DNA of 64,000 nt from Vicinamibacterales bacterium (GTDB lineage: Bacteria > Acidobacteriota > Vicinamibacteria > Vicinamibacterales > CAVVIG01), in assembly GCA_035534615.1 (NCBI GenBank), contig DATLRO010000082.1, forward strand, positions 436-64,435. Direction: 5' to 3'. Positions within the stretch are counted from its first letter, which is position 1, and each line of letters opens with the position of its first letter. This document shows, one piece after another, positions 53,392 to 61,404 of this stretch. Both the position numbers and the translations under genes were made by a program. The notes beneath the pieces were generated by a model that was given only the letters and a program-made list of their open reading frames with translations, did not search any database and was not told the DNA's origin.

Positions 53392-53913
53392 ATGGCACTC
53401 TTCACCCGCCTCCTGCCTTCCACCGTCACCGAGCCGCTCGGCGCCGGCGAACACGACGCCCTTCACGTCGCGCGCGAGATCGATCGCCGGGCGCAGCGCC
53501 TCTTCGGGCGCGCGCTGGCCATCCGCGAAGTGGACGCCGGGTCGTGCAACGGCTGCGAGATTGAAATCAGCGGCCTGACCGGGCCGATCTACGACATGGA
53601 GCGGTTCGGCATGCATTTCGTCGCGTCGCCGCGCCATGCCGATCTCCTGCTGGTCACCGGGCCGGTCACCCGCAACATGGAGGTGCCGCTCCGGAAGACG
53701 TACGAGGCCACACCCGATCCGAAGCTCGTCGTGGCGGTCGGCGACTGCGCACGGACCTGCGGGGTCTTCCGCGGGAGCTACGCCGTCGCCGGCGGCGTGG
53801 GCGACATCGTGCCGGTCGATGTGTTCGTCGCCGGCTGCCCTCCCGAACCGACCGACATCCTGCGCGGCATCCTCGCCGCGCTCGACCGCCGGATCCCCGA
53901 AGTGAGTCGCTGA
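53392..53913 (+). CDS. NuoB/HycG/EchC-like small subunit ([4Fe-4S] N2-type cluster) of a group-4-hydrogenase-related membrane complex
   Basis: ORF 53371..53913 trimmed to MALFTRLLPS... (173 aa). All four cluster ligand positions are present: GSCNGCE (2 Cys), GDCARTCG and AGCPP. Confidence 0.88.
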   Translation: MALFTRLLPSTVTEPLGAGEHDALHVAREIDRRAQRLFGRALAIREVDAGSCNGCEIEISGLTGPIYDMERFGMHFVASPRHADLLLVTGPVTRNMEVPLRKTYEATPDPKLVVAVGDCARTCGVFRGSYAVAGGVGDIVPVDVFVAGCPPEPTDILRGILAALDRRIPEVSR

Positions 53914-53914
53914 C

Positions 53915-55990
53915 ATGCCTTCGGCGCTCTGGCTGGCGCGTGCGGTGATGCTGGCGTACGCCTTCGGGGCGGTCGGCGCGCTCGTCAGCCGCGGCCGCGC
54001 CGGCCGGGCGCTCGGTGCCGCCGGCGCGCTGGCCGGGTCGCTGGCCGTGCTGTGCCTGGGCGTTCTCGTCCTGGCGGGAGGCACGCCCCTTCCGCTCCCC
54101 TCTCTCGTCTTCCCGATCAGCGGGGTCCTGCTGCGCGTCGACTCCCTCAGCGCCGTCTTCCTGCTGATCATCGGCCTGGTGGGGAGCGCGGCCGCGGTCT
54201 ATGGCTACGGGTATTCCGCGCCGGCGCCCGGTCATCCGGTCGAACCGGCGACCGGCGGCGGGGCCGGCGGTCCACGGCCCCATCCGGACCCGCGGGCGAT
54301 GGGCACGCTGCTGAATCTGCTGCTGGCCACGATGACGCTCCAGGTGCTCGCCGACAACGCGTTCACCTTCCTGTTCGCCTGGGAAGCCATGTCGCTGGCC
54401 ACGTGCCTGTTCGTGCTCACCGATGCCGCCGATCCGGAAGCGGTGCGGGCGGCCCGCTGGTACCTCGGCATGAGCCACGCCGGCTTCGCCGCGCTGGTCG
54501 GCCTGCTGCTCCTGCTGTCGGGCGGCGACCTGACCATCCCGTTCGAGGTGGTGCGCCAGGCGACGCTCACGGCGGGCGTCCGGGACGCGGTCTTTCTGCT
54601 GGCCGTGTTCGCGTTCGGCACCAAGGCCGGCCTCGTGCCGCTGCACGTCTGGCTGCCGATGGCCCATCCGGTGGCCCCGAGCCAGGCGTCGGCGCTGATG
54701 TCGGCCGTCGTCCTGAAGATGGGGATTTACGGGCTGCTGCGGATCGTCGTCGATCTGATGCACGGCGGCCCGGCGTGGTGGGGCGGCGTGCTGCTCGGCG
54801 CCGGTGCGCTGTCGGCCGTCTTCGGCATCCTGTACGCGCTGCTCGAATCCGACTTGAAGCGGCTGCTCGCGTTTTCCTCGATCGAGAACATCGGCATCAT
54901 CTGGATGGCGATCGGCGCCGGGCTGATCTTCCTGAGTTACGGGCTCCTGCTGCCCGCCTCGGTGGCCTTCGCGGGCGCGCTGTACCACGCCCTGAATCAC
55001 GCCGCGTTCAAGGGGCTGCTGTTCATGGGCGCCGGCGCCGTGCAGCGGTCGACCGGGACGCGCAACATGGAGCGGCTCGGCGGCCTCATCGGCACGATGC
55101 CGTGGACCGCCGGGCTGTTTCTGATCGGCGCGGCCGCCGTCGCGGCGCTGCCGCCGCTGAACGGCTTCGCGTCGGAATGGCTGATCTTCCAGGCCCTGCT
55201 CGAGGGGTTCCGGATTCCGCAGCCGTCGACGGCGCTGCTCATGCCGATTGCCGTCGGCATCCTCGCCCTGGCCAGCGGCCTGACGGCCGCCTGCTTCGTC
55301 AAGGCGTTCGGCATCACGTTTCTCGCGATTCCGCGCTCGCCGGCCGCCGAACGGGCGTCAGAGGCGCCGTTCTCGATGCGCGCCGGCATGGCCCTGCTGG
55401 CCGCCGCATGCATCGCGCTCGGGCTGGGGCCGTTCGTCGTGGTGCCGCGGCTCAGCGGCGCGCTGGAGGCCATGGGCCTCACCGCCCCGGGACCGCCCTC
55501 CCCGCCGCTCGTCACGCGGCCCCTGGGCATCGCGGGCACCACCGGCCAGATGTCGCCCGTCCTGCTGGCGGCCGGCCTGCTCGGGATCGTCGCGCTCGTC
55601 CACATCGGCCTCCGGCTCGCCGGGGCGCGGGCGCCCGTCCGGCGGGTGGATGCCTGGGGCTGCGGCCGGATCCGGCAGACGCCGCGGATGCAGTACACGT
55701 CGGCGGCGTTCGCGGAGCCGCTGCGGCGCGTGTTCGCCGAGCTGTATCGGCCGACCGACGATCTCACGGTGCACGTGCACCCGGCCTCCGAATACTTCGT
55801 GCAGTCGATCGAATACCACGCGGCCGTCAGCCCGTGGATCGATCGGTTGATCTACCGTCCGATGCTCGGGCTCCTGACCCGGATCGCCGGCCGGGTACGG
55901 GCGATGCAGGGCGGGTCGCTGCACCTGTACCTGCTGTACCTCTGCGTGGCGCTGCTGGTGGCGCTGCTCGCGTCACGGTGGCTGGGATGA
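53915..55990 (+). CDS. HyfB/HycC-like (NuoL-type) antiporter-like membrane subunit
   Basis: 691 aa and polytopic. Proton-conducting membrane transporter motifs (FAFGTKAGLVPLHVWLPMAHPVAPSQASALMSAV; LAFSSIENIG). It starts 1 nt after the small-subunit stop. Confidence 0.88.
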   Translation: MPSALWLARAVMLAYAFGAVGALVSRGRAGRALGAAGALAGSLAVLCLGVLVLAGGTPLPLPSLVFPISGVLLRVDSLSAVFLLIIGLVGSAAAVYGYGYSAPAPGHPVEPATGGGAGGPRPHPDPRAMGTLLNLLLATMTLQVLADNAFTFLFAWEAMSLATCLFVLTDAADPEAVRAARWYLGMSHAGFAALVGLLLLLSGGDLTIPFEVVRQATLTAGVRDAVFLLAVFAFGTKAGLVPLHVWLPMAHPVAPSQASALMSAVVLKMGIYGLLRIVVDLMHGGPAWWGGVLLGAGALSAVFGILYALLESDLKRLLAFSSIENIGIIWMAIGAGLIFLSYGLLLPASVAFAGALYHALNHAAFKGLLFMGAGAVQRSTGTRNMERLGGLIGTMPWTAGLFLIGAAAVAALPPLNGFASEWLIFQALLEGFRIPQPSTALLMPIAVGILALASGLTAACFVKAFGITFLAIPRSPAAERASEAPFSMRAGMALLAAACIALGLGPFVVVPRLSGALEAMGLTAPGPPSPPLVTRPLGIAGTTGQMSPVLLAAGLLGIVALVHIGLRLAGARAPVRRVDAWGCGRIRQTPRMQYTSAAFAEPLRRVFAELYRPTDDLTVHVHPASEYFVQSIEYHAAVSPWIDRLIYRPMLGLLTRIAGRVRAMQGGSLHLYLLYLCVALLVALLASRWLG

Positions 55991-60644: not shown

Positions 60645-60945
60645 GACCGACGCGGCCGCGGCCACGACGCCCTGCTCCGGGCCTCTTCTCCGCGAGCGCC
60701 ACGCTCCGGCCGAACGCATTCGCGTGGAACGGACTGTCACGTCTGGCGGTCACGAGCGGTACGGGCACGGGGTCCCATCCGTCCGCGGATTTGTGCCCGA
60801 CCGCCCGTCTTCGGGCCGAACGGCCGCGCCGCCGCGGCTGCCCGGCGAGGGCCTTCGCCCGCGTCCGCCGCCGGCAGGCTGGTACGCGGGATGCTTATTC
60901 CGAGGTGAGTCCGGGCCGGACCCGGACCGGTCCAAGGAGGCCGCC

Positions 60946-61404
60946 ATGAAAATCCGAGACCTCATGACCCGAGACGTGGTGACGTGCACCACCGAGACGG
61001 ATCTCGCCAGAGTCGCTCAACTGATGTGGGACGCTGATTGCGGCACGGTGCCGGTCGTCGATCCTTCCGGTCACGTCCAGGGCATGGTAACCGACCGGGA
61101 CGTCTGCATCGGCGTGGCCACCAGGCAGCGGCCGGCCGGACACATCGCCGTCCGTGAAGTCATGTCGAGCCCGGCGCACGGCTGCGCCCCGGACGACGAC
61201 GTGACGACCGCGCTGGAGACGATGCGGTCGCACGCGGTCCGCCGGCTGCCGGTCATCGACAACGACGGCCACATCCGCGGCATCGTGTCGATGAACGACA
61301 TCCTCCTGCATGCCGGCGGCAATGGCCTGTCGCAGCCCGCCATCCTCGACACGTTCAAGGCGATCTGCGCGCACCGCCACGGCGCCCCCCTCGCGACCGC
61401 CTGA
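60946..61404 (+). CDS. CBS-pair domain protein
   Basis: ORF 60724..61404 trimmed to MKIRDLMTRDVVTCTTETDL... (152 aa; RBS aaggagg). Two CBS motifs (...GMVTDRDV... and ...GIVSMNDIL...). Confidence 0.85.
   Translation: MKIRDLMTRDVVTCTTETDLARVAQLMWDADCGTVPVVDPSGHVQGMVTDRDVCIGVATRQRPAGHIAVREVMSSPAHGCAPDDDVTTALETMRSHAVRRLPVIDNDGHIRGIVSMNDILLHAGGNGLSQPAILDTFKAICAHRHGAPLATA

What the first reader, a model, noticed from the sequence alone, without database searches (positions are those of the whole stretch)
53392..61404. Minimal six-gene Hyf/Mbh-like membrane module with no ferredoxin subunit, electron-input module or maturation genes
The genes are tightly packed (1-nt gap, ATGA overlap, 15-nt gap, 24-nt gap, ATGA overlap). 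The order is NuoB-like small subunit, HyfB-like, HyfC-like, HyfE-like, HyfD/F-like, then the Cys-less large subunit.

Several expected parts are missing from the operon and the surrounding window:
- the NuoI/HycF/HyfH-type 2x[4Fe-4S] subunit that belongs to the universal core of complex I and group-4 hydrogenases;
- any HycB/HyfA, FdhF or CooS-type electron donor;
- hyp maturation genes and an endopeptidase.

The small subunit keeps all four ligands of the N2-type cluster (SCNGC, GDC, GCPP), so some redox chemistry is probably retained. No route for electrons into that cluster is visible. Placing the small subunit first is also unlike hyc, hyf or nuo operons.

A CBS-pair protein follows 300 nt downstream and an ACT-domain protein sits divergently upstream. 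Both are ligand-sensing folds and could be regulators, which is speculation. Taken together this is a candidate uncharacterised ion-translocating respiratory module.
Basis: partly seen in the sequence, partly recalled or inferred. Interest (0 to 1): 0.75.

Follow-up and report, generated by a model that had tools for sequence, protein, structure and literature searches.

The report
Ehr hydrogenase-related membrane complex operon
This is an intact six-gene operon for an 'Ehr' complex, a relative of membrane hydrogenases and respiratory complex I that has lost the nickel-iron site; the class is already named, is common in soil bacteria, occurs in Mycobacterium tuberculosis, and still has no known function.

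Summary
Six tightly packed genes on the + strand (53392-60644) encode a NuoB-like small subunit, HyfB-, HyfC-, HyfE- and HyfF-like membrane subunits, and a NuoC-NuoD fusion in which all four [NiFe] cysteines are replaced. There is no NuoI/HycF-type gene in the cluster. The 64 kb window holds no hyp, fdh, CooS or nuo gene. The stated end coordinate (61404) belongs to the downstream CBS gene; the large subunit ends at 60644.

The cluster is not a new kind of module. It is an Ehr (energy-converting-hydrogenase-related) complex of the "small subunit first" architecture. That same gene order occurs in 43 of the 80 related loci I retrieved, from Rokubacteria, Chloroflexi, Acidobacteriota and Actinomycetota. 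The Actinomycetota loci include the mycobacterial Rv0081-Rv0087 type. All 43 lack the [NiFe] cysteines and none has a ferredoxin-type subunit.

All six genes are under purifying selection (dN/dS 0.08-0.43), so the cluster is not decaying.

The function of Ehr complexes is still unknown, according to papers up to 2025. My inference is an ion-translocating machine controlled by the single [4Fe-4S] cluster. The CBS and ACT neighbours are not conserved in the related loci. The neighbour that does recur elsewhere is an ArsR/Rv0081-like regulator, and it is absent here.

Verdict: a new member of a known kind, of moderate to low interest.

The parts
53283..53391 (.). Intergenic region of 109 nt between the divergent ACT/DUF5612 gene and the first Ehr gene. 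It presumably holds the promoter. No ArsR-type regulator gene is present here.
   Evidence: Sequence read. No sigma-70 consensus match was found. In 30 of the 44 small-subunit-first clusters counted with the window, this position or the downstream flank holds an Rv0081-like ArsR gene.
53392..53913 (+). EhrS: NuoB/HycG/MbhJ-like small subunit, 173 aa. It has the hydrogenase-type CxxC...C...C ligands (C52, C55, C117, C147) for one [4Fe-4S] cluster.
   Evidence: PF01058 E=9e-32. MbhJ 6cfw_J E=1.5e-38 and HycG 7z0s_G E=1e-37, with the ligand motifs aligned. The Cys motifs are conserved in the Rokubacteria and Actinomycetota clade. It has the lowest dN/dS of the six genes, 0.08-0.14.
53915..55990 (+). 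EhrA: HyfB/NuoL-like antiporter-like membrane subunit, 691 aa.
   Evidence: PF00361 E=2.5e-44 and NCBIfam 'hydrogenase 4 subunit B' E=1.5e-191. Conserved membrane charges in 43 sequences: E157, K237, K315, H362, K366, E421, K463.
55987..56931 (+). EhrB: HyfC/HycD/NuoH-like membrane subunit, 314 aa. The start overlaps the preceding stop (ATGA).
   Evidence: PF00146 E=6.5e-42. HycD 7z0s_D E=4e-49 and MbhM E=9e-30. The charged loop residues E192, R195, D199, H204, E206, H211, E212 and E217 are at least 93% conserved.
56947..57594 (+). EhrC: HyfE-like small membrane subunit, 215 aa, with a NuoK-like C-terminal half.
   Evidence: NCBIfam 'hydrogenase 4 membrane subunit' E=2.2e-27 and PF00420 E=1e-4, both below the curated cut-offs. 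R79, E177 and D183 are conserved.
57619..59067 (+). EhrD: HyfF/MbhH/MrpD/NuoM-like antiporter-like subunit, 482 aa.
   Evidence: PF00361 E=1.5e-46 and 'hydrogenase 4 subunit F' E=1.5e-117. MbhH 6cfw_H E=1.3e-33, with the Glu and Lys motifs typical of antiporter-like subunits aligned (E130, K219, K298, H329/H333/K337, E392).
59064..60644 (+). EhrL: NuoC-NuoD fusion (HycE-like 'large subunit'), 526 aa. It lacks all four [NiFe] cysteines and has no C-terminal extension.
   Evidence: PF00329 + PF00346 + the N-terminal part of PF00374. HycE E=1.4e-68. C->S232, C->T235, C->S520, C->G523. Nqo4 Y87 corresponds to G233 and H38 to I184. More than 8000 homologues exist, and the best 120 are 69-100% identical (78% at most apart from the copy of the query itself). 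The motifs PVGPVHAG.IEPGHFRF, ER.SGD[TS] and DFPLCNKSFNQSYSG.DL are almost invariant in close homologues.
60946..61404 (+). CBS-pair protein, 152 aa, lying 301 nt downstream. It is an adjacent gene and not a conserved part of the system.
   Evidence: PF00571 E=1e-28. No homologue in any of the 80 related loci. It is a generic CBS pair; the Mtb protein Rv2626c matches only at E=9e-10.

Best explanation
**What it is.** The cluster encodes an Ehr (energy-converting-hydrogenase-related) complex of the mycobacterial Rv0082-Rv0087 type. The membrane arm has two Mrp/NuoL/M-type antiporter-like subunits (HyfB-like and HyfF-like), a NuoH/HycD-like subunit and a HyfE-like subunit. The peripheral module is minimal: a NuoB-like subunit carrying one [4Fe-4S] cluster, and a NuoC-NuoD fusion whose former [NiFe] pocket now reads Ser-Gly-Asp-Thr ... 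Ser-Tyr-Ser-Gly.

**Shown here.**
- It cannot be a [NiFe] hydrogenase.
- It is not a piece of complex I.
- It has no NuoI-type electron wire.
- All six genes are intact and under purifying selection.

**Inferred, not shown.**
- The complex moves ions (H+ or Na+) through the antiporter-like subunits.
- This movement is driven or gated at the interface between the NuoB, NuoD and NuoH homologues. The coupling elements there are the most conserved parts of the family: the large-subunit loop PVGPVHAGIIEPGHFRF and the charged cytoplasmic loop of the HyfC-like subunit.
- With no NuoI-like subunit, the single cluster would exchange electrons directly with a soluble carrier such as ferredoxin, docking where NuoI normally sits. 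The acceptor is unknown.
- Alternatively, the cluster acts only as a redox switch.

**Confidence.** About 0.9 for the identity as an Ehr complex. About 0.35 for redox-driven ion translocation with direct docking of a carrier.
For: **Subunit identities.** Pfam and NCBIfam hits. The closest solved relatives are E. coli FHL and P. furiosus MBH subunits: HycE 1.4e-68, HycD 4e-49, MbhJ 1.5e-38, HycG 1e-37, MbhH 1.3e-33.

**Active-site and quinone-site residues.** All four [NiFe] Cys are replaced, and the complex I quinone ligands Tyr87 and His38 correspond to Gly and Ile.

**No ferredoxin subunit.** No ferredoxin motif lies in the cluster.

**Same architecture elsewhere.** Gene order, Cys-less large subunit and lack of a ferredoxin subunit are shared by all 43 'B-first' loci from several phyla. 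These loci form one clade with the window on a rough neighbour-joining tree.

**Link to M. tuberculosis.** The M. persicum locus has an Rv0081 orthologue directly upstream (6jmi_A, E=5e-47). The published Mtb order rv0082-rv0087 matches the window's order. The literature calls that locus an EHR complex.

**Selection.** dN/dS is 0.08-0.43 for all six genes.

**Conserved machinery.** The [4Fe-4S] ligands are kept in the window's clade. The Glu/Lys residues aligned with those of known antiporter-like subunits and the charged HyfC loop are at least 93% conserved.

**State of knowledge.** Papers up to 2025 describe Ehr complexes as lacking the CxxC motifs and having unknown function.
Against: - No electron donor or acceptor is identifiable in the window or in the conserved flanks of 80 related loci. 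The only recurrent neighbour is an ArsR regulator. The redox part of the mechanism is therefore pure inference.
- A separate B-first Ehr subclade (CPR, Thermoleophilia, Bdellovibrionales) has replaced three of the four cluster ligands yet keeps the large-subunit motifs. This argues that electron transfer through the cluster may not be essential to the family's core function.
- The quinone-ligating residues of complex I are absent.
- I obtained no usable structural model; the AlphaFold run gave pLDDT 59.9.
- The rest of the genome is not available, so partner genes elsewhere cannot be excluded.
Confidence: 0.85

Rival explanations
1. Redox-independent or merely redox-sensing ion transporter. 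The complex works like an Mrp-type cation/proton antiporter. The former hydrogenase module is a structural cap or regulatory plug. The [4Fe-4S] cluster, where it is kept, only senses redox or oxygen state and passes no electrons to a substrate.
For: - No NuoI-type wire, no donor module, no [NiFe] site and no quinone ligands.
- No conserved redox partner in the flanks of 80 loci.
- A separate B-first clade has lost three of the four cluster ligands: T/S-x-x-C, GDD and GDPP in most of the 120 best homologues (105 parsed at all three motifs, none with the full Cys set). It still keeps the SGD[ST], EPGHFR and SYSGNDL motifs and the membrane genes.
- The Glu/Lys residues typical of antiporter-like subunits are intact.
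Against: - In the window's own clade the four Cys ligands are conserved, and the small subunit is the most constrained gene (dN/dS about 0.1).
- The Mrp-specific small subunits MrpB, C, E, F and G are absent.
- The cluster-less clade is not the closest relative of the window on the rough tree, so its properties may not transfer.
Confidence: 0.25
2. A working formate hydrogenlyase or group 4 [NiFe] hydrogenase, as the mycobacterial homologues (hycD/hycP/hycQ/hycE) are still annotated.
For: - Best sequence matches are to E. coli FHL subunits HycE, HycD and HycG.
- Database names such as 'Ni,Fe-hydrogenase III large subunit'.
Against: - All four Ni-Fe ligating cysteines are replaced by S, T, S and G. 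The same holds in every one of the 43 loci with this architecture.
- The large subunit has no C-terminal extension for endopeptidase processing.
- The window holds no HycF/HycB/FdhF and no hyp genes.
- The literature states that Ehr complexes are unlikely to be hydrogenases.
Confidence: 0.02
3. A decaying remnant: a pseudogenised hydrogenase operon, or a rearranged fragment of the organism's complex I.
For: Loss of catalytic cysteines and of several subunits compared with hyf and nuo operons.
Against: - All six reading frames are intact, with operon-type junctions.
- dN/dS is 0.08-0.43.
- The large subunit is 63-78% identical across phyla and has long invariant motifs.
- The replaced residues themselves are conserved.
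- The subunits are closer to Hyc and Mbh than to Nuo. The small subunit has the hydrogenase-type CxxC rather than the complex I CC motif. No NuoH chain passes 1e-8 for the HyfC-like subunit, whereas HycD gives 4e-49.
Confidence: 0.02

Closest known systems
Mycobacterium tuberculosis Rv0082-Rv0087 locus ('hyc', predicted formate hydrogenlyase; called an EHR complex in PMC6728331)
   Same: - Same six-gene order: small subunit, HyfB-like, hycD, hycP, hycQ, hycE (for Mtb; for the mycobacterial loci L026, L041, L048, L051, L054).
- Cys-less large subunit with SGD[TS] and SY[SA]GNDL motifs.
- No ferredoxin subunit.
- [4Fe-4S] ligands retained.
- Same clade on the rough tree.
   Different: - About 48-51% identity in the large subunit.
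- The window lacks the upstream ArsR-type regulator Rv0081 that controls the mycobacterial operon.
- The window has unrelated neighbours: ACT/DUF5612 and a CBS pair.
Ehr complex of Geobacter sulfurreducens (EhrA-D, EhrS, EhrL; GSU0739-45) and Ehr of Nitrospira, ammonia-oxidising archaea and CPR bacteria
   Same: - Group-4-hydrogenase-like large subunit without CxxC motifs, a small subunit, and HyfB/C/E/F-like membrane subunits.
- Function unknown.
- The Nitrospira-type loci in my set also have no ferredoxin subunit.
   Different: - In the Nitrospira-type loci the small subunit comes last (HyfB-C-E-F-L-S).
- Some Ehr lineages carry a NuoI-like domain between the large and small subunits or fused to the small subunit.
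- The window has the small subunit first.
E. coli hydrogenase 4 / formate hydrogenlyase (Hyf, Hyc; PDB 7Z0S) and P. furiosus MBH (6CFW)
   Same: - Best solved-structure relatives for every subunit tested.
- The large-subunit loop sequence EPGHFR is conserved.
- Hydrogenase-type CxxC in the small subunit.
   Different: - No [NiFe] cysteines.
- No HycF/HyfH/MbhN 2x[4Fe-4S] subunit.
- No HycB or FdhF.
- No C-terminal processing extension.
- Only two antiporter-like subunits.
Respiratory complex I (Nuo/Nqo)
   Same: Homologues of NuoB, NuoC, NuoD, NuoH, a NuoK-like half and NuoL/M/N.
   Different: - No N-module and no NuoI.
- No separate NuoA or NuoJ gene.
- The quinone ligands Tyr87 and His38 of Nqo4 correspond to Gly and Ile.
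- The small subunit has CxxC rather than the tandem CC of the N2 cluster site.
Mrp Na+/H+ antiporter
   Same: Two MrpA/MrpD-like subunits with the charged membrane residues typical of these subunits.
   Different: - Mrp has no NuoB/NuoD/NuoH homologues.
- Mrp has MrpB, C, E, F and G, which are absent here.

Membership tests
[quoted passage not shown] | The large subunit is homologous to group 4 [NiFe]-hydrogenase large subunits / NuoD. | tested here: met
   HycE 7z0s_E E=1.4e-68 over residues 85-523. PF00346, PF00329 and the N-terminal part of PF00374.
[quoted passage not shown] | Both CxxC motifs that ligate Ni-Fe are absent (definition as given in PMC6349859, PMC10284858 and PMC10432482). 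| tested here: met
   RxCGxC becomes RISGDT, and DPCxxC becomes NQSYSG. The same replacements occur in all 43 loci with this gene order.
[quoted passage not shown] | Clustered with a NuoB-like small subunit, a NuoH-like subunit and Mrp-antiporter-like subunits. | tested here: met
   Operon junctions confirmed.
Rv0082-Rv0087-type ('small subunit first') Ehr subclade | Gene order S-HyfB-HyfC-HyfE-HyfF-L, with no NuoI-like gene or domain. | tested here: met
   The window groups with this clade on the rough tree.
Rv0082-Rv0087-type ('small subunit first') Ehr subclade | An ArsR/SmtB (Rv0081-like) regulator adjacent to the operon. | tested here: not met
   Present in 30 of the 44 B-first clusters counted with the window. 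Absent from the window, where the upstream gene is a divergent ACT/DUF5612 protein. This is a frequent accessory, not a universal feature.
Group 4 [NiFe] hydrogenase (Hyc/Hyf/Ech/Mbh) | Four cysteines (L1 and L2 CxxC motifs) binding the Ni-Fe centre. | tested here: not met
   S232, T235, S520 and G523 occupy the four positions.
Group 4 [NiFe] hydrogenase (Hyc/Hyf/Ech/Mbh) | A 2x[4Fe-4S] NuoI/HycF/EchF/MbhN-type subunit feeding the small subunit. | tested here: not met
   No CxxCxxCxxxC(P) motif in any frame of the cluster. The gene junctions leave no room for another gene.
Group 4 [NiFe] hydrogenase (Hyc/Hyf/Ech/Mbh) | hyp maturation genes and an endopeptidase somewhere in the genome. | not testable with these tools
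   None in the 64 kb window or in the further 6.5 kb downstream. The rest of the genome is not available.
Respiratory complex I | Quinone-binding Tyr and His in NuoD (T. thermophilus Nqo4 Y87 and H38). | tested here: not met
   They align with G233 and I184.
Respiratory complex I | Tandem-cysteine (CC) ligation of cluster N2 in NuoB; presence of NuoI, NuoA and NuoJ. | tested here: not met
   The small subunit has C52-x-x-C55, as in MbhJ and HycG. NDUFS7 CC aligns with G54-C55. There are no NuoI, NuoA or NuoJ genes.
Mrp antiporter | Seven-subunit MrpA-G set without NuoB/D/H homologues. | tested here: not met
   Only MrpA/D-like subunits are present, together with NuoB/CD/H homologues.

The most novel reading that the evidence does not exclude
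The NuoI-less Ehr complexes, including this one, may be complex-I-like machines that no longer carry out substrate redox chemistry. In this reading the former hydrogenase pocket (Ser/Asp/Thr/Ser in place of four Cys) and the invariant coupling loops gate an Mrp-like ion pathway. The lone [4Fe-4S] cluster is only a redox or oxygen sensor. The lineages that lost the cluster ligands (CPR, Thermoleophilia) would then show the end point of that trend.
Probability: 0.25. Interest if true: 0.7.

Novelty: new member of a known kind. Interest (0 to 1): 0.3.

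Why it matters
Ehr complexes are widespread. The large subunit has more than 8000 homologues at E <= 1e-20. The genome scan found over 600 matching stretches, in Rokubacteria, Acidobacteriota, Actinomycetota, Nitrospira, archaea and CPR bacteria. They include the hypoxia-linked Rv0082-Rv0087 operon of M. tuberculosis. Papers up to 2025 still state that their function is unknown.

This window adds one more intact member, probably from Vicinamibacterales, and does not by itself open the question.

The comparative side results could guide experiments on any tractable member:
- The NuoI-less, small-subunit-first layout is a conserved clade feature.
- An ArsR regulator is the only conserved neighbour.
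- The coupling loops are invariant.
- One clade has lost the Fe-S ligands altogether.

Tried and rejected
**Attempts that failed**
- AlphaFold2 of the large subunit, using an 18-sequence alignment of close homologues, gave mean pLDDT 59.9, with the beta-sheet core below 50. The model was unusable, so I ran no fold search.
- I tried to read Marreiros et al. 2013 (BBA) and He et al. 2011 (J Bacteriol). Neither is held. What I say about the 'universal adaptor' idea (NuoB, D, H and one antiporter-like subunit) rests on my memory only.

**Searches that found nothing relevant**
- A missed NuoI-like ORF, with strict and relaxed Cys-motif scans in six frames. There is none in the cluster. Three relaxed hits in related loci are out-of-frame Arg/Trp-rich artefacts.
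- A conserved electron-donor gene, by clustering all flank ORFs of the 80 related loci plus the window cluster. Only the ArsR regulator recurs. The other recurrent clusters are antisense ORFs of that same gene or lineage-specific neighbours.
- Promoter and terminator consensus scan. Nothing rose above shuffled expectation.

**Ideas considered and rejected**
- That the CBS protein is an Hrp1/Rv2626c-type hypoxia protein linked to the operon. The match is weak (E=9e-10) and the gene is not conserved next to Ehr.
- The pseudogene, complex I fragment and true hydrogenase readings (see the rival explanations).

Full report
**Observation**

The region holds six co-directional genes with operon-type junctions. 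In order the junctions are a 1-nt gap, an ATGA overlap, a 15-nt gap, a 24-nt gap and an ATGA overlap.

Profile searches identify the genes as follows:

| Coordinates | Product | Length |
|---|---|---|
| 53392-53913 | NuoB-like small subunit | 173 aa |
| 53915-55990 | HyfB-like antiporter-like subunit | 691 aa |
| 55987-56931 | NuoH/HyfC-like subunit | 314 aa |
| 56947-57594 | HyfE-like subunit | 215 aa |
| 57619-59067 | HyfF-like antiporter-like subunit | 482 aa |
| 59064-60644 | NuoC-NuoD fusion | 526 aa |

Public gene calls for the identical contig agree for every gene except HyfE, which is called 201 aa on one contig and 215 aa on the other. The finding's end coordinate (61404) is the stop of the next gene, a 152-aa CBS-pair protein that starts 301 nt after the large subunit.

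**The missing parts are really missing**

- Aligned to E. coli HycE (7z0s_E, E=1.4e-68), the two CxxC motifs that hold the Ni-Fe centre read RISGDT and NQSYSG. The four cysteines correspond to S232, T235, S520 and G523. The protein stops three residues later, so there is nothing for a maturation endopeptidase to cut.
- Aligned to T. thermophilus Nqo4, the quinone ligands Tyr87 and His38 correspond to G233 and I184.
- The small subunit aligns with MbhJ and HycG. It keeps the hydrogenase-type C-x-x-C, C and C ligands (C52, C55, C117, C147), not the tandem CC of complex I.
- A six-frame scan finds no CxxCxxCxxxC(P) motif in the cluster. The only 2x[4Fe-4S] protein in the window is a GltD-like flavoprotein 41 kb away.
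- Pfam scans of about 37 ORFs across the window found no nuo, hyp, fdhF, CooS or endopeptidase genes. The 6.5 kb beyond the window end adds none.

**It is conserved, not decaying**

The large subunit has more than 8000 homologues at E <= 1e-20. Apart from a 100%-identical copy of the query itself, the best 120 are 69-78% identical. Those that carry a source name come from Vicinamibacterales, Rokubacteria/Methylomirabilota and NC10 assemblies. An alignment of 18 of them is 84% identical per column on average. It has long invariant stretches, including the replaced active-site motifs.

Against five orthologous loci, dN/dS is 0.08-0.43 for all six genes. The small subunit has the lowest values.

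**Comparative genomics**

A scan of one genome per species returned over 600 matching stretches. I examined the best 80 loci by mapping the six window proteins onto them and reading the diagnostic motifs. Two layouts emerge.

*Layout 1: small subunit first, as in the window (43 loci).*
- These come from Rokubacteria, Binatia, Chloroflexi, Acidobacteriota, many Actinomycetota (Streptomyces, Nonomuraea, Mycobacterium, Mycolicibacter), two CPR bacteria and a Bdellovibrionales MAG.
- Every one lacks the Ni-Fe cysteines.
- None has a ferredoxin-type motif in or within 1.5 kb of the cluster.

*Layout 2: small subunit last, as in hyf operons.*
- True hydrogenases that keep all four cysteines and a ferredoxin subunit (Thermincola, Desulfotomaculum and relatives).
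- Cys-less forms that keep a ferredoxin domain.
- Nitrospira-type Cys-less forms without a ferredoxin domain.

A rough neighbour-joining tree places the window with the Rokubacteria/Chloroflexi/Acidobacteriota sequences, next to the actinobacterial clade.

**Link to the known family**

Papers define Ehr complexes as relatives of group 4 [NiFe] hydrogenases that lack the metal-binding cysteines and sit with Mrp-like subunits. They report them in Geobacter, Margulisbacteria, CPR bacteria, Nitrospira and ammonia-oxidising archaea. They repeatedly state that the function is unknown, most recently in 2025.

The M. tuberculosis genes rv0082 to rv0087 are listed in the same order as the window's genes: two 'oxidoreductases', then hycD, hycP, hycQ and hycE. 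[quoted passage not shown]

In my set, the Mycobacterium persicum locus has an ORF directly upstream that matches the Rv0081 crystal structure sequence at E=5e-47. This ties the small-subunit-first clade to the Rv0081-Rv0087 locus.

Clustering all flank ORFs shows that this ArsR/SmtB regulator is the only recurrent neighbour, in 30 of 44 clusters with this layout when the window is counted among them. The window lacks it. Its own neighbours, the CBS pair and the ACT/DUF5612 protein, have no homologue in any of the 80 loci.

**How it probably works**

*Shown:* the complex cannot bind Ni-Fe in the canonical way, has no NuoI-type wire, and lacks the complex I quinone ligands.

*Also shown:* the parts that couple the peripheral and membrane arms in relatives are the most conserved parts here.
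- The large-subunit loop PVGPVHAG.IEPGHFRF is nearly invariant across all 80 loci.
- Eight charged residues of the cytoplasmic loop of the HyfC-like subunit are at least 93% conserved.
- Both antiporter-like subunits keep the conserved Glu and Lys motifs that align with those of the Mbh antiporter-like subunit MbhH, their closest solved relative.

*Inferred:* the complex translocates ions, and a redox or conformational event at the interface of the small subunit, large subunit and HyfC-like subunit drives or gates this. With no NuoI, the single [4Fe-4S] cluster would have to exchange electrons directly with a soluble carrier, or act only as a sensor.

*Against an obligatory electron-transfer role:* a separate small-subunit-first clade (Daviesbacteria, Saccharibacteria, Thermoleophilia, Bdellovibrionales) has replaced three of the four cluster ligands by Thr/Ser, Asp and Asp, yet keeps the large-subunit motifs. 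None of the 120 best database homologues of one such protein shows the canonical cysteine set. Of these, 105 parse as Thr/Ser-x-x-Cys, Asp and Asp at the three ligand motifs, and most of the remainder match at the motifs that could be read. The window's own clade keeps the cysteines, and its small subunit is its most constrained gene. I therefore keep redox control as the leading idea, with only modest confidence.

**Verdict**

The sequence observation is confirmed. The interpretation as a previously unrecognised module is not.

This is a new member, probably from a Vicinamibacterales bacterium, of the known but functionally unsolved Ehr class. It has the same architecture as the mycobacterial Rv0082-Rv0087 operon. 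Interest is moderate to low for this window on its own. The open question of Ehr function is real, but this copy does not make it newly testable.

Noticed in passing
L038:2205-2672, L043:4323-4826, L044:4361-4804, L052:4272-4766, L062:4253-4669; proteins P0121-P0240: A separate small-subunit-first Ehr clade (CPR/Patescibacteria, Thermoleophilia, Bdellovibrionales) has lost three of the four [4Fe-4S] ligands in the NuoB-like subunit. The motifs read GS(T/S)NACE, GDDA and GDPP instead of GSCNGCE, GDCA and GCPP. The membrane genes and large-subunit motifs are kept. Among the 120 best database homologues, 105 show this pattern at all three motifs and none keeps the canonical cysteines. I did not find this mentioned in the CPR Ehr paper I read (PMC7304191).
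   Followed up: partly
L003:3955-4326, L054:3975-4322 and 28 further related loci: An ArsR/SmtB regulator orthologous to M. tuberculosis Rv0081 (6jmi_A, E=5e-47 for the M. persicum copy) sits next to the small-subunit-first Ehr operon, most often directly upstream on the same strand. It is found beside 30 of the 44 small-subunit-first clusters (43 related loci plus the window), including Rokubacteria. The regulator-operon pairing therefore predates mycobacteria. It is absent from the window.
   Followed up: partly
L067:4805-19754; L007:2135-6188; L033:2749-6734; L037:2596-6418; L022:308-13697: A Nitrospirota MAG (L067) carries two complete Ehr clusters in tandem. Three loci (L007, L033, L037) have two tandem HyfB-like genes. 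A Methanomassiliicoccus contig (L022) has an Ehr cluster followed by a second, more distant NuoB/NuoD/NuoH set.
   Followed up: no
window 10268-12052 (-): A 594-aa GltD-like flavoprotein (Pyr_redox_2 plus Fer4_20) with a C-terminal 2x[4Fe-4S] ferredoxin domain. It is the only dicluster ferredoxin motif in the window and lies 41 kb from the Ehr operon.
   Followed up: no
window 16443-19694 (-), 61512-63938 (-); L081:9940-16401: Several very large sortilin/Vps10 and BNR-repeat proteins (about 800-1080 aa) lie in and just beyond the window. Two of them are in tandem directly downstream of the CBS gene.
   Followed up: no
window 20787-23570 (-), 33975-34514 (-): A molybdopterin-binding (MoCoBD_1/2, xanthine-dehydrogenase family) large subunit and a separate [2Fe-2S] Fer2/Fer2_2 small subunit. 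Neither is adjacent to the Ehr operon.
   Followed up: no
window 52227-53282 (-): The divergent upstream gene combines an ACT domain with DUF5612 (PF18462, E=9e-70). The public gene call is shorter (217 aa) than the longest ORF (351 aa). No homologue lies next to any of the 80 related Ehr loci.
   Followed up: partly
L001:56-469 and downstream: In the Rokubacteria MAG locus L001, the C-terminal part of the NuoB-like gene reads out of frame, so the GCPP motif is lost in translation. This is probably an assembly frameshift rather than biology.
   Followed up: no
window 60946-61404 (+): The best solved-structure matches of the CBS-pair protein are CBS subunits of recent multi-chain entries (9znf, 9zng, 9zni; E down to 7e-20). 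I could not identify these complexes. The M. tuberculosis hypoxic response protein Rv2626c matches only at 9e-10.
   Followed up: no
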